64,000 nt of DNA from a virus. How positions within the stretch are numbered: the first letter of the stretch is position 1; each line of letters opens with the position of its first letter. The translations under genes were made by a program, and so were the position numbers. Of the stretch, positions 35,810-54,900 are shown piece by piece. The stretch is from positions 1 to 64,000 of the IMG/VR virus record IMGVR_UViG_3300042453_004886; one strand, given 5' to 3'. The notes beneath the pieces are model-generated. The model was not told the DNA's origin. It searched no databases and was given only the letters and a program-made list of their open reading frames with translations.

Positions 35810-36415
35810 TTAGTCTACCAAGATCTCTTTGTACTGAAACTTAACTTTACCGGCTTTCAGAGCGTCGTAGCGGCGAATAACGTCTTCCTTGAAAGGCAGA
35901 AACAGCCGACCGATATCAACCTTCTGGTTGCGTCCAATTTCCTTATCAACCCTCAGATGATCCGTAAGGTCATCCGTTCTAGGGTCGAGCTTATGCCAAG
36001 CCATGAACTCTGCCACGAACTGAGCTCCTACAGCCATCATCTCAGGAGTAACCGGACACATCCCTTGCATGGTATCTGGGTTGGTCTTGAACATGGCAGA
36101 AAAGCCTACACCAATATTGGACTTGTTAGCCTTGAAAGCGTGCTGACCATACTCTGAAATCTTCAAAGTCTTGATGACGTGCGCCTGATTCTTGGCTTGG
36201 TCAAAGATGATGTTGTAGTGGTAGCCATCAAAAGCCATGGCGTACGTACCCACAGACCAATGCATGGTAATACGCTCGATAGGACCAAGAGCCATACCGC
36301 GCTGCTCGTTTTCATGCTGAACAGTGTACTTAAGTCCATTGATTGTTCCTTGTAGAGGTCTTCCAGGCTTTGCAGCCTCTTTGCTCATGTCACGGTATCC
36401 CACAGCTTCCTCCAT
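35810..36415 (-). CDS. N-acetylmuramoyl-L-alanine amidase (Amidase_2-type endolysin)
   Basis: ITMHWS, YHYNI, GQHAFKANKSNIGV and LTDH zinc-ligand pattern. Confidence 0.8.
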   Translation of the reverse strand: MEEAVGYRDMSKEAAKPGRPLQGTINGLKYTVQHENEQRGMALGPIERITMHWSVGTYAMAFDGYHYNIIFDQAKNQAHVIKTLKISEYGQHAFKANKSNIGVGFSAMFKTNPDTMQGMCPVTPEMMAVGAQFVAEFMAWHKLDPRTDDLTDHLRVDKEIGRNQKVDIGRLFLPFKEDVIRRYDALKAGKVKFQYKEILVD

Positions 36416-37833: not shown

Positions 37834-39240
37834 CTAACCAACAACAACGACTCGGTATTGATTTGTGGTGGGTGCCGTAGCAAACGTTACAATTACAGCG
37901 TTGACAGTGGATACGGTTACATCAGGAATAACTTGGCTACCGTCGCTCTTGGTGTAAACAAAAACCTGCACATCAAGAGTGTTGAGGTTATGCGTAACCG
38001 TAATAGCGGTAGCTGATCCGTTGCCTACGTCTACAGAATACTTGCCAACAGCACCGAGGTTTGTTCTGGCTGCTGCAGCTGTTGTAGCGCCCGTACCGCC
38101 CGCTGCAACTGCAAGCGTTCCCCAGGTAGGGGCGCCAGCCCCGCCAGACAGAAGAGCTTGCCCAGACGTACCTGCAGCCGTAATTGCCATAGCAGATGCC
38201 GTAGAGTAAACAATACCACCGTTAGCAGCAGTAAGAGCAGCATTGGTTCCACCCTTGTTAAGGCCAATATTGGTGGCGCTCCAGGTACCAGTTGTAACCG
38301 TACCCAGAGTTGCAATACTCGAACCACCGGCATAGGTAGAGGCAACAGAGATGCTGTTACCTGAAATTGAAATGCCTGTGCCGGCAGTTAGCTGACCGGT
38401 TCCAGAGAACTTGGTAAAAGTCAGAGCAGTTGTTCCAAGCGTGATCGGATTTGCTGTTGAAAGTACAAATGCAGCAGATCCGTTTGATGTACCTTGCTCT
38501 ACATATGTATAAAGCCCCGCTTCAACCTCTCCTGAAGGAGAATTATCCGCGTCTACTGCACGACTCCAGGAGCTAGCTGAAACAACATAGATACCGTTTT
38601 GTGATGCAGTTGTCTGATCTTTTACAAGAACTCTGTCTCCAGCGATGACTGCAATACCGTCAATGGTCTGCGTACCTGAAAGTGTGATGTTGGCAGTTGT
38701 AGCTACTCGCACGGGGTCTTTGAATGCAAGTCCGGTCTTGGTGGCATCTACATAATTCTTGGTTGCAGCATCCTGAGCATTCTGAGGATCAGCAACTGAA
38801 GTGATTCTCTGGCTGTTTGCGTTTAAAGCACTTGTAGGTGCTGCAAACTGATCAAGTCTGTAACCCTGAACAACGGTGGAGAGATCAGAGATGGTGCTGG
38901 CTGTTTGAGAGCCTGTATGGTTTGCTCGAGCCAGTGGATCCGTTGCAAGCTTTGAAAGCGCAATAGCAGCACTTGCGTTGATGTCGGCGTTAACAATGAC
39001 ACCAGACGCAATCGAGGTTGCGTTGCTTGAACCATCCGTCGTAACGTCACCGGTTAGCTGTGGAGCAGTTGCGCCGGTTAAATCTTTCCAAGCGCTGCCA
39101 TCCCAAACGTATAACTTGTTTACTGCCGTATCGTAGTAGACCTGACCTGTAACAGGACTTGAGGGCGCAGCAGCTAGATTTTGAACGCGAGCATTTTGGA
39201 GCTCGTTCTTGTTCAAATCTAAATTGTTTACAAACTTCAT
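37834..39240 (-). CDS. Virion fibre/decoration protein
   Basis: DAATKNYVD, VRVATTANITLSGTQTIDG...GDRVLVKDQ...NGIYVV; Gly/Thr/Ala-rich; C-terminal THNL module. Confidence 0.75.
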   Translation of the reverse strand: MKFVNNLDLNKNELQNARVQNLAAAPSSPVTGQVYYDTAVNKLYVWDGSAWKDLTGATAPQLTGDVTTDGSSNATSIASGVIVNADINASAAIALSKLATDPLARANHTGSQTASTISDLSTVVQGYRLDQFAAPTSALNANSQRITSVADPQNAQDAATKNYVDATKTGLAFKDPVRVATTANITLSGTQTIDGIAVIAGDRVLVKDQTTASQNGIYVVSASSWSRAVDADNSPSGEVEAGLYTYVEQGTSNGSAAFVLSTANPITLGTTALTFTKFSGTGQLTAGTGISISGNSISVASTYAGGSSIATLGTVTTGTWSATNIGLNKGGTNAALTAANGGIVYSTASAMAITAAGTSGQALLSGGAGAPTWGTLAVAAGGTGATTAAAARTNLGAVGKYSVDVGNGSATAITVTHNLNTLDVQVFVYTKSDGSQVIPDVTVSTVNAVIVTFATAPTTNQYRVVVVG

Positions 39241-39254
39241 TTATTTACCCTCTC

Positions 39255-39866
39255 TTAGTTAAGGTAAGCCTTTCCACTAAACGCTGCACCAAATTCTAAA
39301 ATAACACGAGACGAAGAAATAATTTGAATATCACCAAAAACAACACTTCCTGCAGAGTCCACAACCGTAACGCTTGGAACTTTCCCTAGCGTGTGATCGA
39401 TTGTCCATGTAGACGCAGGAGTTGTTTGATCGTGAACGTAAGTCGGGGATTCTACCTGAATGTTTTGAAACACGCCTTGGCTGTTTATAACCAAAGTCCC
39501 ATTGATAGATAGACCCCCTACAATATCCAGTTGATTGCTCGTGTTCAACGTCATGGCTCGGGTAGAGCCCTGAACAAACTGCAGGTTACCAGCAGAGTTG
39601 GTCGTCAGATCATTTGGGCTTTCGTAGATTTTCCAACCGCTTCCGCCAACCCACTCGATCCCTTCATTGGGACCTGGATCGTTAAAAGCAAGCTTGTTGA
39701 GATTGCTCAGGTTTTTATCACTGAGGTTTAAATCGACATCAACCGTTCCGCTGGATGCCGCCAAGTAAGTTGAGCTATCAATCGAAGCAGATCCATTATT
39801 TAATTTTACGAATCCGCTAGAGTTCTGATTTGAGATGCTAAGATACTTTTTTCTGTTACTAGACAT
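39255..39866 (-). CDS. Virion fibre-associated protein
   Basis: C-terminal YVHDQTTPASTWTIDHTLG..PSVTVVD module, like the adjacent fibre. Confidence 0.65.
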   Translation of the reverse strand: MSSNRKKYLSISNQNSSGFVKLNNGSASIDSSTYLAASSGTVDVDLNLSDKNLSNLNKLAFNDPGPNEGIEWVGGSGWKIYESPNDLTTNSAGNLQFVQGSTRAMTLNTSNQLDIVGGLSINGTLVINSQGVFQNIQVESPTYVHDQTTPASTWTIDHTLGKVPSVTVVDSAGSVVFGDIQIISSSRVILEFGAAFSGKAYLN

Positions 39867-39878
39867 CCCAACTCCAAT

Positions 39879-41753
39879 TTATTTCCATTTAGGAATTTTA
39901 GATATTCTTGTAGCACCCAATACAGACATTTTAATACCAGATGCACTCCCTAGTCCATACATTTTTTCTTCTTGAGCAATACGAGCTACAACCGTTACCA
40001 CCGCGTCAGCAAGGTCTTTACTGTTTCCAAGACCTTTACCCTTGGGGTGATCGATCTTTCTACCGTTTACAAGCTGAATCTTTTTAAGCTCTTCGTGAAG
40101 TTTCTTGGCAGCTTTTGAGCTATTTGGGTCAGGTAATCTGATCAAGCCGTTGTCCAGTCTGTGCCTGAACAGCTCGTACATGGCTAGCTGTGTTGGCGCA
40201 GAGAACGTGATTTCTTCTGTGATAACTCCCTGAGTGTACAGTTTCTGTAAGCTAGCTTGGTTTTGCCAGTGGTCAAAGCTCAGTCGTCTGACGTTACGTT
40301 TCATACACACTTCAAAGATGTTCTTCTCGACATCTTGAAGATTAACGGGAATCTTGATCTTGGGATTGTTGGGATCTAACTCGGGTTCCCACTCAAGTAC
40401 CAGATCAATTACAGCAATCAAGCCCTTATCACTGGGCTCTCCGTGCCCTACAGCAAAACCAAAGCTATCGTGCTTGATACCTGGGTCTGCGTGAGCGTAA
40501 GAATACTTGTTGAACTCCATCTCTTCGAGATTGATCACCTGTAACCCGACGTAAGCTCTGTACTGGTTTGACTTCATCTCTCTGGCGGTTTCTTCTGAAA
40601 CCAGAGCCACGCCTTGGGTGTCATAAACCTTTGTAGGAGCGTACTGAGCCACGGGCTGCGCCGTTGAGTACAGTTTGAGCATTTCCTTGTTAAAGAAGTC
40701 TTCCTGAGCCCCAGGGCGAACTCCCATGTAATCTCGACGGGCACCTATGGGGTCCGTTGCAAAGAACGTGGTCAAATCTGGATCGTCTTGTCCGGTGTAG
40801 TTGGGGTTTACGTCCCAGGTACACAGTCTCAAACACATCATGCTGGTAGGATCTAGTTGACCGGTCTCAACAAGCTTCCAAAGACGGTCAGACATGTCTC
40901 CTTCTTGCCATGCAGATCCAATGCCAATTTTAATACCGCCGTCTGGATGCAGCTTGAAACGGGTAGTACCTTTACCGACGTTGTCCCAGAGAGCAAGTCC
41001 TGAGCTTTCTACAGATGCGCCAGGCTCAACGGCAAAGCGGTTGACCTCGTCCATCAGCAGTCCCCAGAGGTTCTTACCGACAAGACCTGCGCCTCTTGAG
41101 TGACCCGCACGGAAAATAACGTTCTTTTTGCGGTGAATAATCTCGGTGCTGAGGACTTCAATGTCTCCGCGCTCAATCATAGAACCAAAATATGCAGAGC
41201 TTTCCATACGTGCTTTGGTGTAAGCAAAGATGGTATCTTTGGCCTGCTGTTCATTTGTAGCGATGGATAGAACGAATACAGGGTCTCCGGGCAAAAGCCC
41301 CAGCTCTTGTCCCGGATCTTCCATTTTTGTAAGTCTGTAAAACTCGTAAGAGGACATTGCGCCCGTCAAACTGCTCTTGCTCGAGCCCATTCCGGATTCT
41401 AAGCTAAGGTTTTTATAGCGTTGTCCGGGCACCCAGAGAGCTTTTTTTTCATCAATCCACTTATCCATAATGGCGGCTTCATCAAACTCTGTGTCGTCGC
41501 TTACGCGCCATTTCTTGAGCTTCTCGCCACGCGTAGGGTCATCAGGAGAAATGCACTCTCCCCACAAGCCTTTGCTGAAAGGAATGCCGTAAAAAGCTTT
41601 CATGATGACACGCTGAGCAGGAAACAGGTACAAACCAAGAATTTCCTTGGCGTACTCAACCGGCGACAACATGGAGTTGTCGTTTTGCATGGCTTCAGAA
41701 ATGATCTGATCTAGTAGTCCATCAAAGCCGCGGTCTTTTTTATCTCTTGCCAT
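39879..41753 (-). CDS. terL: Terminase large subunit
   Basis: Q motif (PAQ), GMGSSKS, IATNEQQAK, Walker B LLMDE, nuclease HADPG..HD, FDHWQ and SKDLADAV. Confidence 0.85.
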   Translation of the reverse strand: MARDKKDRGFDGLLDQIISEAMQNDNSMLSPVEYAKEILGLYLFPAQRVIMKAFYGIPFSKGLWGECISPDDPTRGEKLKKWRVSDDTEFDEAAIMDKWIDEKKALWVPGQRYKNLSLESGMGSSKSSLTGAMSSYEFYRLTKMEDPGQELGLLPGDPVFVLSIATNEQQAKDTIFAYTKARMESSAYFGSMIERGDIEVLSTEIIHRKKNVIFRAGHSRGAGLVGKNLWGLLMDEVNRFAVEPGASVESSGLALWDNVGKGTTRFKLHPDGGIKIGIGSAWQEGDMSDRLWKLVETGQLDPTSMMCLRLCTWDVNPNYTGQDDPDLTTFFATDPIGARRDYMGVRPGAQEDFFNKEMLKLYSTAQPVAQYAPTKVYDTQGVALVSEETAREMKSNQYRAYVGLQVINLEEMEFNKYSYAHADPGIKHDSFGFAVGHGEPSDKGLIAVIDLVLEWEPELDPNNPKIKIPVNLQDVEKNIFEVCMKRNVRRLSFDHWQNQASLQKLYTQGVITEEITFSAPTQLAMYELFRHRLDNGLIRLPDPNSSKAAKKLHEELKKIQLVNGRKIDHPKGKGLGNSKDLADAVVTVVARIAQEEKMYGLGSASGIKMSVLGATRISKIPKWK

Positions 41754-41762
41754 GTAGATTTC

Positions 41763-42212
41763 CTAGTCTTTTGCTAAATTACTCTCAGGGTTAGTTACGT
41801 ATACACTCTCATCTTTTTTAATGATCTGTATACTTCTTGAGTTAGATCTAAAATCATTGTAGTTTACGTAGAGTATTTCCCATTTATCCATTTTAGAAAA
41901 ATAGCATATTTCTGGAAACATAGATCCAAATACGCCTGAGTGTAAATTAACTGTACAAAGCAGGATAAAGTCTTCGGTGTAGACTTTATAGCTTCCTAAA
42001 ATTCCAGGAAGCGTTACACCTCCGAGTAAGTCACCTGTTTCTACAAATATGCTTACATCGGGATGATTTATAACCTTCAAAGCAACATCAGGAGGAATAT
42101 CGTTTTGAACTTTTTCCAGACTTTCTACATCTGAAAAAAGCTGATTAACAGAATCCTTGTACTCATCGTTTACACTAAAACCAGGTTGATTGATAGACAT
42201 ATTACTTTCCAC
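41763..42212 (-). CDS. Hypothetical protein
   Basis: 149-aa ORF within the minus-strand operon. Confidence 0.65.
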   Translation of the reverse strand: MESNMSINQPGFSVNDEYKDSVNQLFSDVESLEKVQNDIPPDVALKVINHPDVSIFVETGDLLGGVTLPGILGSYKVYTEDFILLCTVNLHSGVFGSMFPEICYFSKMDKWEILYVNYNDFRSNSRSIQIIKKDESVYVTNPESNLAKD

Positions 42213-45200
42213 TTCCTATTCTTTCCAGTACTCTTAACATTGTCCAGTAGTAATAACCCGGTAATTCAGATTCTAGTAGCTGAGTTTCATTACCAGTTTT
42301 ATCTACCCCAAATAGTCTTATTTCTCCTGTAGTAAGTCTTCTGCTAATAATCGTTTTATACTTCAAGTAAGGATCTGCTGGTACACCCTTTCCACCATTA
42401 AATATTTCATTAATTTCTCTTTGAGTGATTACTTGGTTTGAATTTGAACTGTTTACTTTTGCTTTTATTAAGCTTGATACACCTTCTCTAATATAGTTTA
42501 TATCTTGTAATTCTACAGGATTTATAGGTTTAATATTATTAGTGTTATTCGGTATTAAAACATCTGATCTAGGTATATCTGATAAATCAACACCAGCTAA
42601 ATTTAAGTTTACACTGCTAATAAAAATAATTGAGTTTATATCTATTCCATGAGAAACACACAAAGTACCTAGTATACTAAGTAAATTATTTATCTGTGTA
42701 TTACTTATACTTCTTGTATTGCTAGTATGGCTGTCGCACTCTAATCCTATAAATATAGAGTTTTCTCCTAAGTTGTCGATTCTGCTTCCGTCTTCAATAG
42801 TAATGTAAGCTTTTTTAGGATCTAAAGTACTTACAATTCCTTCAAGTTTAGTTAAAACATTTTCTACTCTTTGTTCTATAGTTCCATCTTTTCGTACAAC
42901 AAAATGGAGAGTTTCTTGTGTACTAGTCTGATCCATATCTTTATTAAATAATCTTATTATTATTCGGGTGGGCTTTAAATCCTGAGTTTTATTACCTGTA
43001 GTCTTAGGTGGAAATTTTATAACTTTAACAGGATTTATAGAAAATTTTATTATATTTTCCGAGTAATTGTATAAAATTTGAACAAGCTCTCCCGTTCTTG
43101 GATCAAATTCGTAAGAATTACCGGAACTTTCTACGTAGGTACCATTTGAACTTTTTGCTAAGCTTCTCATTTTTCTAGAGTTAAGGACTTCTTTTAAAAG
43201 CGCTCTTGCTCCGGCGGGAGTTAAATCTATTACTCCTGAACTTTCTCCAGGAATTGGGTTTCTTCTTATAAACACGCCCTGTATAGGGCTAAACGAAACT
43301 TGACTAATCTGGGTGGGAGTATGGGTACCCCCTTTAACTTTTCTTGATATACCTGTTTTTACAAGAATTAGATCTCTCCAATTACGCTCTAAGTAGTAAG
43401 CAAATCCTTCCCCACTATATTTATCTCCTTGGTAGTGATTTGCGATATTACTGTACTCATCTTTTGTAGCCTGTGGTAAATCTATAGGCCATGGTAACCC
43501 TGTTAGCTCTTGCAAATAATGAGCAAACTCGTGAGCCGTAACACTTAAATAGTCTACTCCCCCAATTAAACGATAATACTTTACGATACTATTATAAGAA
43601 ATTTTTATTATATTTCCGCTATCGTACACTCCTATTGCCCATGTAGTATATATTTCGTGGTCACCCGTGGTTCCTACAAGATCAGTAGAACTAACATTTA
43701 AACTTGTTGGAGCCTCTACCCCGAATACTTCAGCTAATCGAATAGCAAGTTCTTGTGAAGTTTTTGGCATAGGCCTTAACAGTGTAAAACTATTTGTAGC
43801 TGCATCAGTTAGTACGTCAACAGAATCTATACTTACAGAGTTTGCAGTACTTTCAGGGTTAAACTCAAGTTTTAGCGTATTTTCATTGAAACTGTGATCG
43901 GGTATAGGTTGGTTTGTAGCTGCATCCACTATTTCTAGTTTAAACTCTTTAAATTCTTTATTAAGGGGTTTACCTACATCATTTACTAAAACTTCGTTTG
44001 ATCTAGTATTTTCAAATTGATTTAATTCAAATGTTTTTTCTACTTCCCAACTCTGAGAAGAGTTTGTTCTTACGTATAAAGTTACTCTTACTCTACTTGG
44101 GTGATCAGGTATATTAACTGAGAACGAGCTAACTGGCTCAGCTTTATTAAACACTATTGTTACAGTAGTATTCGTATAGGAGTAGTGTCCTTGCTGAAGT
44201 AGTCTAATAGGGTTACTTGTAGTTACTTGCGTGCTTTTTACTGAAGAAGAAGACGCTAGATGATCTAAAGTTTCTACCATGCTTAAAAAGTAAAACTTAA
44301 GTGCTTCTTTTTGGTTCCAAGTTAGTTCTCTATCTTGACTATCGTTTACTACTAAAAACGGAGGGTCTAAATACGCTAGTCTACCGTATTTATTTAATCT
44401 AACTGCCTGTATAGGGGCTTTAAGATCAAGATTTATGTCTATACCAGATTGTTTTATTTCAAATAAGGTAAGAAGATAGTGTTGATTACTGCTGTACCTT
44501 GTGTGAGCATCCTCTTGTCTTAACATACCCTCGGAAGGACTGAAATATAAGGGTATGTCTTTATTTGTTTCTGAATCTTTAAAAGTTAAAGTTATTTTTG
44601 GTCTTAGTAATAGTCCAGAATTTTGTGTTGTTTGAACTATTTTTCTATATTTTGTACTAGAGCTGTTTTGTTTTTCAATCCAATCTATATGGTAATGTGT
44701 GTAATAAATATTCTTATGTCCTTTTACTGCATTACCAGAAGCATCTTGAAAAGTAGACTCAGTATTTGCAGATATTGGAAAGTATCCAATTTTTGGAACC
44801 AAGGAAAAAGTTACGTTAGTAAGTACTCTTTTAAAAGTTTTTGTTTTTTCATCATATTCAGCAATATAGGGAGTTCCATCTGTCTCAAATAATATAACGT
44901 AATTGTCTGTACCGTTCATAACAGCGGTACGACTAAGTTCGGGACTTATATATTTGTCTGAAAATATTACTATACCCCTATTACTTCTAGTTGTTTCGTT
45001 TTCTAGAGTAAGGTCAGAGTAAAGTCTAAAGTAATCCCCAATATTTGTTTTAAATCTGTAATCTAGGTAAACAGCATCTGTTGGTAATTGAATATATTTA
45101 GAGTTTGTAGATAAGATTTGCTTTAATAGTAGCTTTGCATTTTCTCTATCTATGTAAGCAACTTTTCCTGTTGTTATTACAAAAAATTGTCTAGTTATCG

Positions 45201-45549
45201 GATTAAACGACAATTCCTTGTAGGAGTAAGTAGGTAAAAATTGATCGTTTAATTCTTTTTGTTTAAAAAGCTTGGCTTTACTAGTCGGTAACTTGAGAGA
45301 CCTATCTCCACTAATTATTGAGGCTGCCTTTACTATTTTTGTAGACTTTATAGCATAAATTCCTTTTCTTGTTTTTTCTTCAACATCATCTACAATACTT
45401 GATACAAGCTCAGCATCTTCTTTTCCAACCTTTATTATTTCTCTAACTATGCTTTTTAGTACTCTTTGTAAAGTAGAGTAATGCCTTCTAAGAGCAGCTA
45501 TATCTAAATAAGATTTAGATATTTTATTAGACTTTTTTGGATCAGCCAT
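42202..45549 (-). CDS. Large multidomain protein A: gluzincin HExxH peptidase + degenerate amidase-like domain
   Basis: AHEFAHYLQ...EGFAYY; HFVVRKDGTIEQ...SIFIGLE; paralog of 45551-48916. Confidence 0.7.
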   Translation of the reverse strand: MADPKKSNKISKSYLDIAALRRHYSTLQRVLKSIVREIIKVGKEDAELVSSIVDDVEEKTRKGIYAIKSTKIVKAASIISGDRSLKLPTSKAKLFKQKELNDQFLPTYSYKELSFNPITRQFFVITTGKVAYIDRENAKLLLKQILSTNSKYIQLPTDAVYLDYRFKTNIGDYFRLYSDLTLENETTRSNRGIVIFSDKYISPELSRTAVMNGTDNYVILFETDGTPYIAEYDEKTKTFKRVLTNVTFSLVPKIGYFPISANTESTFQDASGNAVKGHKNIYYTHYHIDWIEKQNSSSTKYRKIVQTTQNSGLLLRPKITLTFKDSETNKDIPLYFSPSEGMLRQEDAHTRYSSNQHYLLTLFEIKQSGIDINLDLKAPIQAVRLNKYGRLAYLDPPFLVVNDSQDRELTWNQKEALKFYFLSMVETLDHLASSSSVKSTQVTTSNPIRLLQQGHYSYTNTTVTIVFNKAEPVSSFSVNIPDHPSRVRVTLYVRTNSSQSWEVEKTFELNQFENTRSNEVLVNDVGKPLNKEFKEFKLEIVDAATNQPIPDHSFNENTLKLEFNPESTANSVSIDSVDVLTDAATNSFTLLRPMPKTSQELAIRLAEVFGVEAPTSLNVSSTDLVGTTGDHEIYTTWAIGVYDSGNIIKISYNSIVKYYRLIGGVDYLSVTAHEFAHYLQELTGLPWPIDLPQATKDEYSNIANHYQGDKYSGEGFAYYLERNWRDLILVKTGISRKVKGGTHTPTQISQVSFSPIQGVFIRRNPIPGESSGVIDLTPAGARALLKEVLNSRKMRSLAKSSNGTYVESSGNSYEFDPRTGELVQILYNYSENIIKFSINPVKVIKFPPKTTGNKTQDLKPTRIIIRLFNKDMDQTSTQETLHFVVRKDGTIEQRVENVLTKLEGIVSTLDPKKAYITIEDGSRIDNLGENSIFIGLECDSHTSNTRSISNTQINNLLSILGTLCVSHGIDINSIIFISSVNLNLAGVDLSDIPRSDVLIPNNTNNIKPINPVELQDINYIREGVSSLIKAKVNSSNSNQVITQREINEIFNGGKGVPADPYLKYKTIISRRLTTGEIRLFGVDKTGNETQLLESELPGYYYWTMLRVLERIGSGK

Positions 45550-45550
45550 A

Positions 45551-48500
45551 CTATTTTCTTCCAGCTATTCTAAGCAAAGCTCTTACTGAGGAGTGATAGT
45601 AATAAGCTGGTAATTCAGATTCTAGTAGTTGAATTTCGTTACCAAGTTTATCTATTCCAAACAGCCGCATCTGTCCATTAGGGAGTCTTCTGCTAATAAT
45701 TGTTTTATACTTTAAATGGGGATCAGGTGGCACACCCCTACCGTTATTAAATAATTGGTTAATTTCTTTATAAGTAATAAGGTGATTTAAATTTATACTA
45801 TTTTTATTGGAACCCTTAGATTTTATTAGATTTTCAACAGCTTCTATTATGTAATTTATATCTTGTAAATCTCCAGGACTTACGTTTATACTCATTATTT
45901 CTTGTATAGAAAACGTCGAGCCTTTTACAACATTACTAAAGAAAATTGAATCTTTCTCTATTCTGTAAGATAACCTAATTACAGCTAGCAAGCTAAACAA
46001 AGATTCTATTTGTTTAGGGGTTATGTGAGAGTTATAAATGTCGGCTGGGTCACACTCTATACCTATAACCATAGAATCAGAGAACAAACTGTCAATTTTA
46101 AGATTACCTTGTTGAATGTAAGCACTATCTGAGCTAAAAGATGACAGACAAGTTAAAATATTATTTACTTTTTGTTCAATAGTCCCATCTTTTTTTACAA
46201 CAAAATGAAACGTTTCTTCAGTTTTAGTAGCATGCGTAGAACTTTGAAACATTTTCAATATAATTCTGTTTACAAAGACCATAAGTCCAGGACCCCTGTT
46301 GGGGTATTTTGGAGGCAGATCTACTTTTTCTACAGGCTTTACATTAAACTTTACTAAGTTTGCTGCGTAATTCGTTGAAATCTGACCAAACTCTCCTGTT
46401 CTTGGATCAAACCTGTAAACATTTGAAGATGCATCTATATACTGTATTTCTCCATTAATATTACTTACTGTTGGTAAGTTTCTTACTCCTTGATTATTGT
46501 GTATTTCTCTTAAAAGAAGCTGAGCAACCGCGGGAGTCAGGTCTAAAGAACCTTTATATTCTCCAGTTACAGGATCTCTTCTCATAAAAAGTCCTTGAAT
46601 GGGGCTAAAACTAACTTCCTCTAGTCTAGTTACCTGATAACTTCCTTCAGCTACTTCGGTTAGTACACCTGTTTTTACAATAATAAGGTCTTTCCAGTTC
46701 TCTTCTACGTAGTATGCAAATCCTTCTAATGACCTGTTTTCACCTTGTCTTGTATCAGCGTAGTTACTGTATTCGTCTTTTGTAGCTTGCGGTAAGTTAA
46801 CAGGCCAAGGTACTCCTGTTAAGTCTTGCAAGTAGTGAGCAAACTCGTGTGCAACAACGTTTAAAACGTCACCCTTATAAAACCTAACTGTATCTGCCAA
46901 TTTTATTCTTACTATGTTTCCACCGTCAGTGTATGTACCAATTGCGTCAGTACTGTGAATAACGTGATCACCACTGTTTCCGGAAAGTAAATCAACAATA
47001 TAACCTGATGGAGCTTCCACTCCAAACGATTCCGCTAATCTACTTAAAAGCTCTGCAATAGCACGATCAACATCAGATTTATCTTGAACATTAGATATTC
47101 TTGGAAGGGGTCTTAACAGCTTAAAACTATTAGTTGATGTATCTGTTAAAGCATCAACAGAGTTTATATCTACTAAAGGTACGTGTGACTCGTGTTTGTA
47201 CTCAAGTTTAAACGTATTCTGATTAAAGCCACTAGAAGATGGTAAACTATTTCCAAAAACATCAACTATACGTAATTTAAACTCTCTATATTCAACTGCA
47301 GTTGTACTATCTTTTTCTAATATTTCTATACCAGTCCTAGATGCTTCCGGGTAAATTCCTGCACTATCTGCAAACAGCGATATTTCATTTAGTTGAGTCC
47401 AGCTTTGACTTGAGTTTACTCTTCCAGATACAATCAATCGAATAACTTGAGGGTTGCTTGACGAGTAAGGGATTACAACAGAAAACCGATTTACTACTTG
47501 TGGTCTGCTAAATACAACAGTTATTTCACTATTTGTAAAAGAGTACTGTCCGTTTTGCATCACTTTAGGTGGAGAAATTTGAATATTTAGTCTGCTTTTT
47601 AATGATCTTTCAGAAGATAAATGATCTAGTGCTTTTACCATGCTTAAGAAATAAAATATTAAAGCTTCTCTTTGATTCCAACTAAGTTCTCTATCAGGAC
47701 TATCGTTTGTTATTAAGTATGGGAAATCTAAGTAAGCCAGCTTACCATATTTATTTGTTTTAACGACCTGTACAAAATTTTTCCAGTCAAACCCCATACC
47801 TGATTCTACTATTTCAAACAAGGTAAGAAGATAATGCTGATTGCTGCTGTATCTTGTGTGAGCATCATCTTGTCTTAACATACCCTCTGAAGCGCTAAAG
47901 TACAGGGGAATGTCTTTACCTGTCTCCGAGTCTTTAAATCTTAGAGTTATTTTTGGTCTAAGAGATCCCTTGTTTTCTTCTTGTTGAAATATTTTTCTGT
48001 ACTTAAGTGGTGAATTATTTTGTTTTTCTACTTCAACAATTTGATTGTCTTCCATGTAGTCTAAATCATAAAATGATTTTGCTCTATTGTTAGGATCTAG
48101 TACTGTGTGTTTAGTGTGTGAGCTTACAAGATAGTAACCAGTCTTGGGAATTAGTGAAAACTTTATATGACTAAGAACCTTTGTAAATGTCCTTGTTTTT
48201 TTATTATACTCCGCAATATAAGGTGTTCCATCTGCTTCAAACAGTATACCAAGTTGAAAGTCATTGCCTACAGGACCAAGTGCAATAAGCTCTCTTTTTA
48301 AATCTTTATCTGCAAATATAACTAAATCTACTCTTTGATTTGTTGTTTGCTCAAATTCTAGAGAATTATTAGAGTAAACTCTATAATAGTTATTTTCTGA
48401 TGTTCTAATTCTATACGCTAAGTACGGAGCTTCAACAGCTAGCTGTAGATATTGGGAGTTTGTAGATAAAATTTGCTCTAGTATAAGTGCTGCGTTTTCT

Positions 48501-48916
48501 CTGGTAATAAAAGCAACTCTACCTGTTGATATTACAAAAAACTGACCTGTCAGTGGATTAAATGAAAGTTCTTTGTAAGAGTAAATAATATTACCACTTT
48601 TATCAAGAGCAGTAGTAGAGCTATCTAAAAGATCTTGTTTTAAGTTATTAAGATCTTTTTGTGTAGGTAGTTTTTTAGGTTTTTTTGGAACAAGTCGTTT
48701 GTCTACTAAGTTTACTTTTGGTTTTTTAAGTCTTCTTATTCCCTTTGCTTTATACTCACCTGTTTTAGGGTCTCTTACCATATCTATATAGTCGTCAGAT
48801 CCTGTTGATAAAGACACTACTTCTTTAGCTTTTTGCTTTAACGCCATTAAAAGGGCACGCCAGTATACTCTAGCCGCTGGAGATGTTGCAATTTTTACTA
48901 AGCTCTCAACGCCCAT
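45551..48916 (-). CDS. Large multidomain protein B: gluzincin HExxH peptidase + degenerate amidase-like domain
   Basis: AHEFAHYLQ...EGFAYY; HFVVKKDGTIEQ...SMVIGIE; collinear with protein A. Confidence 0.7.
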   Translation of the reverse strand: MGVESLVKIATSPAARVYWRALLMALKQKAKEVVSLSTGSDDYIDMVRDPKTGEYKAKGIRRLKKPKVNLVDKRLVPKKPKKLPTQKDLNNLKQDLLDSSTTALDKSGNIIYSYKELSFNPLTGQFFVISTGRVAFITRENAALILEQILSTNSQYLQLAVEAPYLAYRIRTSENNYYRVYSNNSLEFEQTTNQRVDLVIFADKDLKRELIALGPVGNDFQLGILFEADGTPYIAEYNKKTRTFTKVLSHIKFSLIPKTGYYLVSSHTKHTVLDPNNRAKSFYDLDYMEDNQIVEVEKQNNSPLKYRKIFQQEENKGSLRPKITLRFKDSETGKDIPLYFSASEGMLRQDDAHTRYSSNQHYLLTLFEIVESGMGFDWKNFVQVVKTNKYGKLAYLDFPYLITNDSPDRELSWNQREALIFYFLSMVKALDHLSSERSLKSRLNIQISPPKVMQNGQYSFTNSEITVVFSRPQVVNRFSVVIPYSSSNPQVIRLIVSGRVNSSQSWTQLNEISLFADSAGIYPEASRTGIEILEKDSTTAVEYREFKLRIVDVFGNSLPSSSGFNQNTFKLEYKHESHVPLVDINSVDALTDTSTNSFKLLRPLPRISNVQDKSDVDRAIAELLSRLAESFGVEAPSGYIVDLLSGNSGDHVIHSTDAIGTYTDGGNIVRIKLADTVRFYKGDVLNVVAHEFAHYLQDLTGVPWPVNLPQATKDEYSNYADTRQGENRSLEGFAYYVEENWKDLIIVKTGVLTEVAEGSYQVTRLEEVSFSPIQGLFMRRDPVTGEYKGSLDLTPAVAQLLLREIHNNQGVRNLPTVSNINGEIQYIDASSNVYRFDPRTGEFGQISTNYAANLVKFNVKPVEKVDLPPKYPNRGPGLMVFVNRIILKMFQSSTHATKTEETFHFVVKKDGTIEQKVNNILTCLSSFSSDSAYIQQGNLKIDSLFSDSMVIGIECDPADIYNSHITPKQIESLFSLLAVIRLSYRIEKDSIFFSNVVKGSTFSIQEIMSINVSPGDLQDINYIIEAVENLIKSKGSNKNSINLNHLITYKEINQLFNNGRGVPPDPHLKYKTIISRRLPNGQMRLFGIDKLGNEIQLLESELPAYYYHSSVRALLRIAGRK

Positions 48917-51900
48917 TTATTGTAACTCTTTTAATATGTTAGGTATATAGTTTATATTTTCGTTACCAGAGGTTGTACCTAACTGATTAACGGCTCTTTT
49001 ATCTGCTTCTACAGAAAATTGTCTATACTCTAGCTTAGTACCTTGAGATAATGCTGCTTCTAGAGCACCTGATATTTGAGAGTGATACCCTCTTACAGCA
49101 ATTAATCCAGCTTGTACTGGGTCTGCTTTCTTTTGATTAACAAGATCTATAAGTTTTAAATCAGAAGTAGAATAGTTATTTGTAATTATATTGTAAAGTA
49201 TTTTTGCACTAAGTATAGTATAGTATTTTACTGGTCTAGGTATTTTAGACGGTTTATTAGTTAATGGGTGATTTAGTAATTTGTAGTAGTTTGTGTAAGC
49301 TTCGTGATCAAGTTCATCAGCAACGGCAACACTTAAAGCCAACTGACTGTGCGTATTTAAAAGAACTTGGCTAATTCCAGATGCACCTGTATTAAAAGAG
49401 CTTGTTGAACTATTCCAAACAAGTTTTTGATCGTTTGTATAGCCTTGACCATCGTTTGCTAGTATGTACGGATTTAAACCAATACTTTCATGAGCTAACA
49501 TTGCAAGAAAAGTTTGAAGCGGAACCATAAGTCTAGCTGTTTCATTACTACCAAAAGCTTTATTGTAAGCATCAGCTATGTAGTAAGTTAGAGTTTTTGC
49601 ATCATCCATTGTGTACTTCATCTCTGTAAAACTACTTAAATAAGCATAAACCGCATCATCCATTGTTTCAGCAAACTCTACTGCAGTCTTAGCTGAATAT
49701 ATACCGGAGTAGGCTTTTTCTACAGCGGTGTATTCTGCTTTTGTTAATAATCTTTTATCATTACCTGCAAGATTACCCTTTTCGTCAAATCTAATTTCAT
49801 CTACTTTTCTTTGCTTTCTACTCGGGTTTTCTAATCTATCTTTTAAATACCTAGCATCTGCTTCAGTTAAAACTAATTGAAACCTACCTGTGATACCGTT
49901 ATAATAAAATTTATTTGATTCTACATCAAATTCAGCTGCATCGAGCATTTTTTTACGTGATTTAGATAATGGTGCAGCAGGCCTTACTTTTTCTGCGGGC
50001 TCTCTAAACTGAGGAAGTTCAAGGTCTATATCAGCAGGTAAAACAGTTTTGGACAGTTTATTTACAAAGTATTCCATGGATGCAATTAAAATTTTAATTT
50101 CGTCTATTATTGATATAGATTTGGTACCAACTGCAGGAACAGTCATGTTTCTTTCTGGAATAGTATACCTACTGTTAGCTTTAACTAGTTCAAATTTAGA
50201 TTTAGTGGTATGAGTTGAAGTAACTTTAGATAGATCTTTAACATCATCACGTGATGATCTATAAGGGCCGGGAGGAGTATTAAAATAAATAGCTTGATGT
50301 GCTTTACTAATCTCTAAAAATGCGGTTTCAAAGTACCTAATAGGTCTTTGAGCAAGCTGAAATAAACCATGTGGATACTCAGTAATACTTACAGCTCCAA
50401 AGAAAACTTTACCGGTGTTATTAAGATAGTTATCAGTAATAAACCTTGAATCTTGAATATTTGAATCTGGATTGTAGACGCTTAAAAGATAGTTAAGAAA
50501 CTCCTGTAAATTGTTTTCGCTAGGAATTACTTCATTCTCTAGTATTTCCTTTTCCCCTGTTTCTGAGTTAGTTTTGGTGTAGTAGTAAAATACAGGTGCT
50601 TTGAAATTGAAGTTATCTTTAACTTTATTGAAAGTTACAAGTAAATGCCAAGGCTTAAAATTAGGTATATCAGGAGCGAGTTTGATCTTTTTTACAAGCG
50701 CGTTTACATCTTTTTCTGAACCGTAAGATTTGGTAGCAAGCTGAACAGCCCAAGATTGAGAAGTTCTATAGTTTGTAGTAGGCCTAGATTTGCTTGAAGA
50801 AGAAGAACTGCCAGAACTTGCAGACGTAGCGCTACCACCACCTCCTGATTTTGGTGTAAATAAAGTATCTTTTGGTAGGTTGCCTGTGGTTGAACCAACT
50901 ACAAAGTCCCCATCTAGGACTTCTAGCATATACGTTACTGCATCTATTAAAAGTCCTACCTCTTCGTATAAAGACAGGTAGTTTTTAGTTTTTGGTGAGT
51001 TAAAATAGCTAAACTGCCAGTTGTTCTCTGTATGTTTTTCTTCATGCTTAATAGTTTTTATGTTTATTGTTCCCTTTAAATTTACTGTTGTGGTTCCGTA
51101 GTAGTTTTCTTGAGTACCTGATCTTTCCGAGGATACATACCTACTAGCCGATTTGTACAGGTAAAAAGCATTTGGCGTCTCCGGGGTTCCCCTAGCATAG
51201 CGCTCAAAAATAGTTCCTAAATATGGGCCTTCTTTAGCTGAAATCCTATCTGATTTCATTGTTAGTTTAGTGCTTGAACTACTTGGCCTACTTACATCAT
51301 ACCTGTCAGGAGAAAAATTAGATCTATCGGATAGATACGCGGTTAAAAACCATTCCAAATCTTTACGAGTCGGAACAACTTCTGTAAAGGTTAGATCATC
51401 CCGACGGTCGGAATCATTGTAAGATAAACTATAGTAAAATTTTCCGTATCTGAGGTCTATACTGCCGTCTTTATTAGTATGTGGTTTAAATATAATTTTT
51501 GGTAAATGCGGATACGATGTTTTATTGCTAGTGCTAACTAAGGTACTAAGACCAGGTATACCGGTTGAAGTTTTTAACATATTAATAAAAGCAGTTACAA
51601 CACGGTTATTTTCAGGAAAGTACTTTGGATCTCTTAGCTGCTCATATACCCCTGGATAACTTTTTGCAGAAGCTGTTCTACCTGCAGCTTGTGCTGCCTT
51701 TTCAACTTTACCCTGAGGATTACCGTTACTTGGAACAGCTCTTCCCGGCCTTCTTGCCGCAGGTCTTGCAGGAGCAGGTTTTTTTCTTTTCTTTGTTGTT
51801 GTGCCGGCTGCTTTTTTACCAGATTTTTCTTTTTTGGATTCCCCAGAACCTGCAGCACCAGAACCAGATTTACCTTTTGAAGCTTGCGCGACTTTAGTCG

Positions 51901-54900
51901 ATGGTTCTTTTCCAGAAGGAGCTTTTTCTGAGTTTAATCCAGATATTTTGTATTTATCATCAAATTTGTGGTCTGTTACTCTAAATACAATTTTGTACCA
52001 AACCCTGTCGTCTCTTTGAATAAATCTTTCAAAGCTTATAATAAATCCGTTGACTTTGATATTTATTCCATCTTCAGGGTACTCTGGAGACTCTACAGGA
52101 GCTTGTCCTTGAGATCTAAGAGTAAGCGTGCAGATGTTTCCAGCAGTCTGCAGTTTTCTGATAATGATGGATTCTTGATACGCCCTGAAATACTGGTATG
52201 TAGTGCCGTCATAGGGATCTTTGTTTCTGTAGTCGTTAAACGGGTCTCTGACAAATTTGGCACCCTTTGCTCCCTGAGCTTGTCCGGTTGTGTATCCAGG
52301 TTGATACTCGCCCAAGAACGAGCCTACAAACTCGATAACTTCATCGCTGACACCCATGGCCTGATAAACAGGTGTAGAGCCAGGGATATTAATCTTTGCT
52401 ATGTTCAGGTTTGTCCTGAACACGACACCATGATCCGCGCCAGGAGCTTGCATGCCCTGAGAAGGACTTGCAGACCGAACAGCAGGCATCATTTCAAAGT
52501 TGTAAGTTGTTCCACCAGATTTAATTGTGAACTCTGGATCAAGAATAAGAGTACTTGTGTAATTCTTTTTAACAGATAAGTTAGTACCATCTCTGTATTC
52601 TTTTATCTTTGAAATAAGCTGCTTGTAATTTTTTGAGTTTCTTCCAACTATAAAATTGGTTCTATCCAGCAGTCTTTCATAGGCGTTTACTACTCTAAGG
52701 GGTAACTTAGGTAGCTTGGGCAGGGGTTTTCCAGATACTGTATTTGTGTATCCAAATAACTGAGCCTGCAAGACGTCTTCAAGTTTTAAATTAGCTACCT
52801 CTGTCGGGTTATCGGAAGCAAGTATGTAACTACTTGTTCCAAGTTTTGTTTTTTCTTCCTTGCTATTTACTGTTTTAATAAGAGAAATACTGTGTATAGA
52901 TAAGATAGCATCTTTATCTAATCCAGTCTTGAATCCAAGATAAAACTTGTAAGGTCCATCTCCTAATACGTTTTCTTTCAAGTTGGTATTTGAGGAAACT
53001 TTTAACGACCGTGATTGAACAGGATTTCTAGTATTCATTCCTCCGTTTATAATTCCTGATAAAATCTCAAAATCATTGGTTCCATTTGTGTAGTATACGC
53101 AAAGATTGAAGTCACTGTATGATTTACCTTTGTCTAGAGAAAACTCTACGGTGTAATTTGCTTCCTCCCCGGCTTCGCTGAATATGATTTTGTTATCTGG
53201 AGTAACTGTAGCAGGAATTTCAAAAAGTCTGGCCCTGAGCTCTAAGCCGTCTTTACCCTGAATATTTTCGTTAAATCCTTCAGTATGTATGTCTAAAGTC
53301 TTACCACTGTTATCGATTACTACATTGACATCTTTCTTTTTTGTAGCTAAATCAAATGTCTGGAAATCAGCTGCCGCTTCAGTTTCAATTTTGTAGTCTG
53401 AGTACCACATTTGAAGAGGTTTTAGGCCTACCTCTTTTAGCTCAAAGTAGGATATAGCAGAGTTTAATTTATTAGCAGATTCTAGTATGCTTGAAAGTAC
53501 ACTATCAGTTTTTTGGTTTAAAAAGAAGTCTGAAATTTGATCTGGACTTACAAAGCTAGCTTGTCTTTCAGCCAGTGTTTTTTTGTAAAAATCATTGTCT
53601 AGAGTAAAATCTTCAAGCTCAAAATTAATCTCTACATCAAAATTGCCATGATCGTTGTTTAACTTAAAAGTGTTAAACTCAAAACTTATAACTTTATTTG
53701 TATTTAATCTACCTACAAATCCAGCCGGAACCTCAATTCCTTTTACAGGATCTACTTCTAGAGCTTCTTTTGCTTGAGTTTGTGTATTGAGTCCAAAAGC
53801 TGATATAACTGAGTCTGATACAATGTATGTTTTTGATGTATTACCAATGTAGTCAACTATAGCTATTTTTGGTCTAATATAAAAATTAGTTAAAGAACTT
53901 AGACTTACCTGTACAGATCCGTATAGAAATCTATTTTTATTAACTCCAGAGTAACTTCCTTTATTTGGTGAAGCTAAATTATTAGACTTGAAAGACAGGT
54001 GTTTTACTTTTCCAGATACTACGTTATCTACATCACCTTTAAACACTGATGTATATATTTTACTTCTTGGATTAGAATTATAAACAGGAACAGTTATTTG
54101 TTGATCATCTGCATAGTAAATATCCTCATTAAGCCCAAAACTAATAAAGTTTGGACCTGAAGAGCTAGAAAACTTTGTTACTATTACATTTGACGAATAA
54201 TCACCATTTTTATCTAGTTTGTCAGATACTTCTCTATACTCTGACTTTAGTGAAATTTTAAATACTACATAGGAAAGGTCACTTGTAGACTTGTTAGGGT
54301 CAAATATTTTTACACCTCCACCAGGTGTAGGTTTAATGACCATGTCTAAGTAGTAAAATTTCGGTTCAACAGGTCCAGGTACATCTCTAAAAACATCTTG
54401 TATTTTTATAGATTTTTCGGAGTTTACAAGAAGTACGTCTTGAAGTGTTGTATCTCCGGGTACGGTTGAAGGTTTGTCTTTTCCTAGCTGACCATTAACA
54501 AAAAAAGTTCTATTTTTTATATTTATTTGAAAATCTTCAATGTAGGTGTATTCCCCTGAAGTATTTGGAGTAACTGAAGGTAAAACATTCCCAATTTCAT
54601 CATAAGGAACACTGGCAATAAACATGGATGCATACGGGTTTTTATCGTAGATATACTTGTGTCTTTGAACTTCATAAGGAATAGATAATTTAAGTTCTTT
54701 TCCTGTGGATAGCAAATACAGCTGTTCTTTAGAAACCCTGAGGTGTACTTCATTCTCAGATACCGTTGCTACAGCAGCATTAATATCAAGATCCTTGATT
54801 ACACCCTTAAAGTCAGGAAGTAAAAACTCTATCTTCTGCTCAACTTTATGCGTGTAGCTAACAACCTTTGAATCAAGCTTTTTGCTTATAAAATCATTGA

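What the first reader, a model, noticed from the sequence alone, without database searches (positions are those of the whole stretch)
42202..48916. Tandem ~1120-aa paralogs combining an intact gluzincin protease with a catalytically dead amidase fold
Seen: collinear proteins with HEFAH (43519-43533; 46835-46849) plus a downstream EGFAYY third ligand; an upstream discoidin-like beta segment (~43920-44180); and a C-terminal Amidase_2/PGRP-like segment (HFVV.KDGTIEQ...S..IG.E...QI..L..LL..L...GI) where the first Zn-His is replaced (IIIRLF, IILKMF) and the last His is absent, unlike the true endolysin at 35810. Both end in the same GVP.DP.LKYKTIISRRL...LLESELP.YYY module. Inference: virion proteins that bind peptidoglycan or glycan non-catalytically and cut a protein layer such as an S-layer, with two specificities.
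Basis: partly seen in the sequence, partly recalled or inferred. Interest (0 to 1): 0.75.

Follow-up and report, generated by a model that had tools for sequence, protein, structure and literature searches.

The report
Twin orphan phage tail-module metallopeptidase proteins
Two neighbouring, related ~1,100-residue genes in the tail-gene block of an uncultured 195-kb freshwater phage each combine a sugar-binding-type domain, an apparently intact small zinc-protease module and a cell-wall-amidase remnant with no metal site, a combination with almost no relatives in public data, probably used to grip and cut the host envelope, though this is untested.

Summary
Two adjacent minus-strand genes (45551-48916, 1121 aa; 42202-45549, 1115 aa) are 47% identical end to end. 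Both carry HEFAH, EGFAYY, the HFVV.KDGTIEQ segment and the shared C-terminal module.

The three domain calls hold up to different degrees.
- **Zinc-protease module (P0001 ~596-730):** H, E, H and the downstream E are invariant in the only two outside relatives found among 1.84 billion representatives. AlphaFold2 gives the helix, three strands, HExxH helix, Glu helix order at pLDDT 60-83. No curated zincin family is reached.
- **Amidase_2 core:** it scores 25.4 and 24.4 bits against a cut-off of 26, and hhalign gives 86% probability against T7 lysozyme. Only the middle of the domain matches. The three zinc ligands and the catalytic Tyr are not there. The fold model is unreliable (pLDDT 20-40).

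The genes lie in one tight late operon, after the sheath, gp25-like and gp6-like baseplate genes, in the position where tail-fibre genes usually lie. Virion location, substrate (S-layer or other) and peptidoglycan binding remain inference. This is a near-orphan new variant of virion-associated envelope enzymes. The scan noted this stretch before only on this same DNA.

The parts
45551..48916 (-). Twin A (P0002), 1121 aa. Its ATG directly follows the stop of the 3208-aa gene.
42202..45549 (-). Twin B (P0001), 1115 aa. It starts 1 nt after the stop of twin A.
45250..45549 (-). P0001 residues 1-100: basic (pI 10), predicted long helices. This is one of the most diverged parts between the twins (18-28% identity). 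P0002 equivalent: 48629-48916.
44218..45249 (-). P0001 residues 101-444: beta-rich region of unknown fold. It holds the most conserved blocks of the twins (109-148 at 78%, 328-367 at 88%). P0002 equivalent: 47579-48628.
43849..44217 (-). P0001 residues 445-567: predicted galactose-binding-like (CBM32 / F5/8-C / discoidin) beta-sandwich. Diverged between the twins (20-45%). P0002 equivalent: 47186-47578.
43360..43764 (-). P0001 residues 596-730: minimal zincin-type metallopeptidase module, with H673-E674-x-x-H677 (43519-43533) and E714 in EGFAYY (43393-43410). P0002 equivalent: 46676-47101, with HEFAH at 46835-46849 and EGFAYY at 46709-46726.
42970..43347 (-). P0001 residues 735-860: linker or beta region of unknown fold, about 50% identical between the twins. 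P0002 equivalent: 46271-46663.
42580..42972 (-). P0001 residues 860-990: degenerate Amidase_2/PGRP-like domain. The profile-matched core is 874-973 (42631-42930). No zinc ligands or catalytic Tyr can be identified. P0002 equivalent: 45935-46273, core 45947-46231.
42205..42462 (-). P0001 residues 1030-1115: shared C-terminal module (GVPxDPxLKYKTIISRRL...LLESELPxYYY), 65-72% identical. Predicted as three short strands plus a helix at pLDDT 60-76. P0002 equivalent: 45554-45820.

Best explanation
The twins are late-expressed proteins of the tail module of a contractile-tailed, Ma-LMM01-related phage. They most likely sit at the baseplate periphery, in the position usually held by tail-fibre genes. 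Each chain carries a lectin-type beta-sandwich (CBM32/discoidin-like), directly followed by a small gluzincin-type zinc metallopeptidase with a complete catalytic set (HExxH plus a downstream Glu). Further on comes a remnant of an Amidase_2/PGRP domain that has lost its zinc site and so cannot hydrolyse peptidoglycan. A conserved C-terminal module ends each chain. Proposed mechanism (inferred): the two non-catalytic modules hold the protein on envelope glycan or peptidoglycan, and the zincin cuts a protein or peptide component of the envelope (surface-layer or sheath glycoprotein, outer-membrane protein, or a peptide stem) during adsorption or penetration. The duplication gives two versions whose binding modules have diverged. 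Shown: paralogy, motifs, profile-level Amidase_2 homology, absence of the amidase ligands, fold-level lectin similarity, operon position. Inferred: virion location, activity, substrate, binding.
For: Paralogy and motifs.

Amidase remnant. PF01510 scores 25.4 and 24.4 bits on profile positions 31-114 only. hhalign gives 86% probability, E 4.9e-6, to T7 lysozyme residues 46-115. At the positions of T7 His17, Tyr46 and His122/Cys130 the twins have R/K, L/F and no His or Cys.

Context. One tightly packed minus-strand operon, with stop and start codons abutting. Upstream lie the tail sheath, a gp25-like and a gp6-like baseplate wedge subunit, a DUF4815 protein and a 3208-aa giant. Downstream lie the large terminase, fibre-like proteins including one with a Peptidase_S74 chaperone domain and lysis genes.

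Divergence pattern. The putative binding modules are least conserved (20-38%), while the zincin (68-70%), the 300-430 block (up to 88%) and the C-terminus (65-72%) are most conserved.
Against: No curated zincin family is reached. The best scores are Peptidase_M90 at 12.2 bits and SprT-like at 12.6 bits. MPTase-PolyVal, Peptidase_MA_2, Tox-MPTase3, DUF3920 and M60 give nothing. Zinc-site geometry could not be inspected.

Both AF2 models are poor overall (mean pLDDT 45 and 36), and the amidase region is at pLDDT 20-40. The amidase fold is therefore supported by profiles only, and only for its central ~70-100 residues. The spacing between the putative first strand and the HFVV strand is about 14 residues shorter than in T7 lysozyme, so the domain may be remodelled, not just inactivated.

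No virion proteomics exist and the phage is uncultured. In a diderm (cyanobacterial) host, peptidoglycan is not exposed to a fibre-borne domain before the outer membrane is breached. The conservation pattern (variable N-terminus, conserved C-terminus) is the reverse of typical tail fibres.
Confidence: 0.42

Rival explanations
1. Polyvalent or cargo-type proteins. The twins are packaged and delivered into the cell, or processed before assembly. The zincin module works as an autoprocessing peptidase, or attacks an intracellular host protein, as proposed for MPTase domains of phage polyvalent proteins such as P1 DdrB and N4 vRNAP. It would not cut an envelope layer.
For: The module's predicted topology and ligand set match the polyvalent-protein MPTase description. 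One remote homologue has sub-threshold hits to Tox-MPTase3 and MPTase-PolyVal. A language-model neighbour carries LPD23, a polyvalent-protein domain (score under 0.9). The N-terminal 100 residues are basic and helical. The phage encodes other giant, probably delivered proteins (earlier notes). The genes lie directly before the terminase gene.
Against: PF18818 gives no match in the genome. No nucleic-acid or other intracellular effector domain was found in the twins. The two other recognisable modules are of extracellular, carbohydrate or cell-wall type. The gene position follows the baseplate wedge genes.
Confidence: 0.2
2. Virion-associated peptidoglycan peptidase. The zincin cleaves peptidoglycan peptide stems or cross-links after tail contraction, and the dead Amidase_2 remnant acts as its peptidoglycan-targeting domain.
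For: Amidase_2-derived domains bind muropeptides (established for non-catalytic PGRPs; my own knowledge). The amidase core homology is supported. Virion-borne wall hydrolases are common on baseplates (PMC11948020; PMC5512222).
Against: Known phage peptidoglycan peptidases belong to M15, M23 or NlpC/P60, not HExxH gluzincins (my own knowledge, not tested here). Earlier notes place a lysozyme-like domain on the central spike protein of this phage (unverified). The CBM32-like module points to glycan, not peptidoglycan.
Confidence: 0.15
3. Purely structural baseplate or fibre proteins in which the enzyme-like segments are inactive relics. The HExxH/Glu set would then be retained for metal-dependent folding or by descent, without proteolysis.
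For: The amidase domain is already degenerate. There is no family-level zincin match. The most conserved parts of the twins are regions of unknown function outside the enzyme-like modules.
Against: The HExxH block and the Glu helix are among the best-conserved parts at 47% overall identity. The same residues are invariant in two very distant stand-alone homologues. That is the pattern expected of a working active site.
Confidence: 0.12

Closest known systems
Zincin-like MPTase domains of phage and plasmid polyvalent proteins (Iyer et al. 2017, PMC5512222; Pfam MPTase-PolyVal PF18818)
   Same: A small module built as N-terminal helix, three-stranded sheet, HExxH helix, then a later helix supplying a Glu. 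It is embedded in very large multidomain phage proteins encoded among late or virion genes.
   Different: No sequence match to PF18818. The partner domains here are lectin-like and cell-wall-type, not nucleic-acid or NAD-directed effectors. The genes sit in the tail-fibre position after the baseplate genes.
M60-like / ZmpB-type glycoprotein peptidases with CBM32 modules (e.g. Clostridium perfringens ZmpB, PDB 7jfs)
   Different: No Peptidase_M60 match. The catalytic module here is about 135 residues, far smaller than M60. ZmpB is a secreted bacterial enzyme, not a phage protein.
MtfA (Peptidase_M90) / anthrax lethal-factor-type minimal gluzincins (PDB 3dl1)
   Different: Scores are far below any threshold (12 bits against a cut-off of 26.2). 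MtfA is a cytoplasmic regulator-binding peptidase.
T7 lysozyme / Amidase_2 (PF01510) and non-catalytic PGRPs
   Same: The central core (T7 residues 46-115: the YHFII.RDGTVE hairpin, the SIGV strand and the following long helix) is recognisably homologous.
   Different: The N- and C-terminal thirds of the domain, which carry His17 and His122/Lys128/Cys130, do not align. The Tyr46 position holds L or F. Non-catalytic PGRPs usually lose only one ligand; here all are gone and one helix appears to be deleted.

Membership tests
Gluzincin / zincin-like metallopeptidase (clan MA type) | HExxH motif lying in an alpha-helix | tested here: met
   HEFAH at P0001 673-677 and P0002 690-694. The predicted helix 78-94 of the C-half model contains it, pLDDT about 79-83.
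Gluzincin / zincin-like metallopeptidase (clan MA type) | Third zinc ligand: a Glu in a helix downstream of HExxH | tested here: inconclusive
   E714 (EGFAYY) lies 36 residues after H677. It is invariant in all four family members and starts predicted helix 125-143. Coordination geometry could not be inspected.
Gluzincin / zincin-like metallopeptidase (clan MA type) | Core fold: N-terminal helix plus three-stranded sheet before the active-site helix | tested here: inconclusive
Gluzincin / zincin-like metallopeptidase (clan MA type) | Significant match to a curated zincin family model | tested here: not met
   Best scores are M90 at 12.2 bits and SprT-like at 12.6 bits. No match to PF18818, PF13485, PF15639, PF13058 or PF13402.
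Amidase_2 / PGRP (PF01510) | Profile score at or above the Pfam gathering cut-off (26 bits) | tested here: inconclusive
   In hmmscan of the whole proteins: 21.5 and 21.1 bits. In the genome search: 25.4 bits (26 with neighbouring stretches in the frame) and 24.4 bits, on profile positions 31-114 of 131 only. hhalign against the T7 lysozyme family: 86% probability.
Amidase_2 / PGRP (PF01510) | Zinc ligands (T7 lysozyme His17, His122, Cys130) and catalytic Tyr46/Lys128 | tested here: not met
   R/K sits at the strand position of His17 (RIIIRLF / RIILKMF) and L/F at Tyr46 (TLHF / TFHF). There is no His or Cys in the segment after the long helix.
Amidase_2 / PGRP (PF01510) | Predicted Amidase_2 alpha/beta fold | tested here: inconclusive
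F5/8 type C / CBM32 (galactose-binding domain-like) | Beta-sandwich fold of the superfamily | tested here: met
F5/8 type C / CBM32 (galactose-binding domain-like) | Sequence match to PF00754 | tested here: not met
   The twins give no match at E <= 10, while eight other domains in the same genome match. hhalign to those domains gives 0.3%.
Phage polyvalent proteins (Iyer et al. 2017) | Large polypeptide combining an MPTase with other, disparate effector domains, encoded with late or virion genes | tested here: inconclusive
   Size, an MPTase-like module and late-gene context fit. The only other enzyme-like domain is inactive, and no family model matches.

The most novel reading that the evidence does not exclude
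The twins are baseplate or fibre-borne proteases that cut a proteinaceous or glycoprotein surface layer of the host (S-layer or sheath). A lectin-like module and a PGRP-derived module guide them, and the two paralogues cover two host surface variants. This would be a protein-directed counterpart of phage polysaccharide depolymerases. How phages cross S-layers is described as unknown, and the one S-layer-penetrating myovirus solved so far shows no enzymatic domains (PMC11948020).
Probability: 0.18. Interest if true: 0.8.

Novelty: new variant of a known kind. Interest (0 to 1): 0.45.

Why it matters
Phage tails are known to carry polysaccharide depolymerases and peptidoglycan hydrolases. A tail-module protein armed with an apparently functional zinc endopeptidase between two carbohydrate- or cell-wall-type binding modules would point to proteolytic attack on a host surface layer, for which no phage enzyme is established.

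The zincin module defines a tiny new family, with four sequences among about 15 billion proteins. The amidase remnant is a clear case of a lytic domain turned into a non-catalytic module. The twin arrangement offers a natural experiment in specificity divergence.

The value is limited by three things: there are no relatives, the host is uncultured, and the structure models are poor.

Tried and rejected
Homologue searches beyond the twins themselves:
- tblastn of P0001 against 50,697 phage records gave nothing.
- The word-indexed search of 5.8 billion proteins found only the twins.
- The full HMMER search of 1.84 billion representatives found only two short proteins, matching the zincin module alone.
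- A search with the four-sequence module alignment added nothing.
- Scans of viral, metagenome and GTDB genome contigs found no relatives.
- Ma-LMM01 and My-WqHQDG have no counterpart.
- tblastn of P0003 and P0004 against phage records gave nothing.
- PDB sequence search with the whole-twin profile gave nothing at E <= 10.
- PHROGs and NCBIfam gave nothing meaningful.
- The ESM Atlas had no usable hit for the whole protein.

Structure:
- Both AF2 models are mostly low-confidence.
- Foldseek of the C-half model against PDB and BFVD gave only meaningless rows (TM < 0.15, rmsd > 10 A).

Other attempts:
- A trimer prediction of the C-terminal module (residues 1010-1115, three copies) returned 'no answer'. 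It is evidence neither for nor against oligomerisation.
- Domain-by-domain HMM searches found no other copy of any twin module in the 195-kb genome.
- The promoter and terminator scan showed no excess over shuffles, so no internal transcription signals can be claimed.
- Membership in M60, M90, SprT-like, MA_2, Tox-MPTase3, DUF3920 and MPTase-PolyVal was considered and is not supported.
Full report
**What is there.** The window is the first 64 kb of a 194,626-bp IMG/VR virus record that CheckV rates complete. On the minus strand, ORF 45551-48916 (P0002, 1121 aa) and ORF 42202-45549 (P0001, 1115 aa) are separated by one base. P0002 starts directly after the stop of a 3208-aa gene. The two proteins align end to end at 47% identity and 64% similarity. 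HExxH is expected in only about 1.5% of composition-matched shuffles. Neither protein has a hydrophobic segment of membrane-span strength. Both have a basic (pI 10), predicted helical N-terminal ~100 residues.

**Rarity.** The twins are close to orphans. Nothing was found in 50,697 phage records or in the word-indexed 5.8-billion-protein set. In an exhaustive HMMER pass over 1.84 billion cluster representatives, only two short proteins appeared: P0003 (190 aa) and P0004 (252 aa). Both match only profile positions ~707-767, the HExxH...EGFAYY block. Further scans of viral, metagenome and GTDB contigs gave no relatives. The cultured relatives Ma-LMM01 and My-WqHQDG have no counterpart. No module of the twins recurs elsewhere in the same genome.

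**Amidase remnant.** Pfam Amidase_2 hits both twins at the same place: 21 bits in hmmscan, and 25.4 and 24.4 bits in the genome search against a cut-off of 26. Only profile positions 31-114 of 131 are covered. A profile of T7-type lysozymes aligns to the twin profile with 86% probability (E 4.9e-6) over T7 residues 46-115. T7 lysozyme is also the best PDB sequence hit (E 0.15). The parts of the domain that carry His17 and His122/Lys128/Cys130 do not align. By position the twins have R or K for His17, L or F for Tyr46, and no His or Cys after the long helix. The segment between the first strand and the HFVV strand is about 14 residues shorter than in T7 lysozyme. So amidase activity can be excluded on sequence grounds. 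Retention of the fold and of muropeptide binding is inference, since the model there is at pLDDT 20-40. The phage's presumed endolysin (35810-36415) is itself only a weak Amidase_2 match (18.6 bits; hhalign 2.8%).

**Context.** A single minus-strand operon runs from about 93 kb to 36 kb. Upstream of the twins lie the tail sheath, a gp25-like and a gp6-like baseplate wedge subunit, two small unknowns, a DUF4815 protein and the 3208-aa giant. Downstream lie a 149-aa ORF, the large terminase (30-32% identical to Ma-LMM01 and My-WqHQDG), fibre-like proteins including one with a Peptidase_S74 chaperone domain, and the lysis genes. In simple myovirus baseplate clusters the fibre genes follow the gp25-, gp6- and gp7-like genes (my own knowledge). 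The twins therefore occupy the fibre or periphery position. This supports virion association but does not show it.

**Divergence pattern.** Sliding identity is lowest in the N-terminal 100 residues (18-28%), the sandwich (20-38%) and the amidase remnant (12-38%). It is highest in 109-148 (78%), 300-430 (up to 88%), the zincin (68-70%) and the C-terminal module (65-72%). This fits conserved catalysis and assembly with diverged binding. Relaxed constraint would give the same picture.

**Verdict.** The architecture is supported in graded fashion: zincin probable, amidase-derived core probable and certainly inactive, lectin-like fold plausible. The mechanism is a reasonable inference at about 0.4: an envelope-bound protease on the tail, most like a miniature CBM32-plus-gluzincin glycoprotein peptidase. 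The rivals are an autoprocessing or cargo role, a peptidoglycan peptidase, and a purely structural protein. It is a new variant of virion-associated envelope enzymes, with a new, extremely rare zincin module. The same stretch was noted twice more by first-stage readers of overlapping windows of this same genome. No look-alike was noted on other DNA.

Noticed in passing
G000 147843-174079 (+), outside the window (loci L014-L021): Six large ORFs (670-1327 aa open frames) carry eight Pfam F5/8-type-C (discoidin) domains, up to 58 bits. This is a block of lectin-domain proteins far from the tail operon, possibly adhesins or extra fibres.
   Followed up: partly
window 42000-50000 compared with 38000-42000: The twins and the start of the 3208-aa gene are the most AT-rich part of the window (31-35% GC). 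The adjacent terminase and fibre genes are at 46-47% GC. The step coincides with the twin B / 149-aa ORF boundary.
   Followed up: no
window 44218-45249 (P0001 residues 101-444), especially residues 328-367: The most conserved block of the twins (88% identity, ...DIPLYFS.SEGMLRQ.DAHTRYSSNQHYLLTLFEI...) has no family, fold or motif assignment. It may be the baseplate-attachment part or a further unknown active domain.
   Followed up: partly
window 41763-42212 (-): The 149-aa ORF between twin B and the large terminase more likely starts at the ATG two bases after the twin B stop than at the listed GTG. It has no family hit. By position it could be a small terminase subunit.
   Followed up: no
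window 48917-58543 (-), residues ~1990-2201: The 3208-aa giant shares a ~70-95-residue segment (39-42% identity) with Ma-LMM01 gp111 and a My-WqHQDG 830-aa protein (phrog_37225). It is otherwise an orphan.
   Followed up: partly
window 35810-36415 (-): The presumed endolysin reaches only 18.6 bits on Amidase_2 and 2.8% by hhalign against T7-type lysozymes. It is a more distant Amidase_2 relative than the inactive twin domains are.
   Followed up: partly
G000 ~183288 (+), 452-aa frame, outside the window: Another HExxH (AIAHEITHW) in a well-formed context. It could be a further metallopeptidase and was not examined.
   Followed up: no
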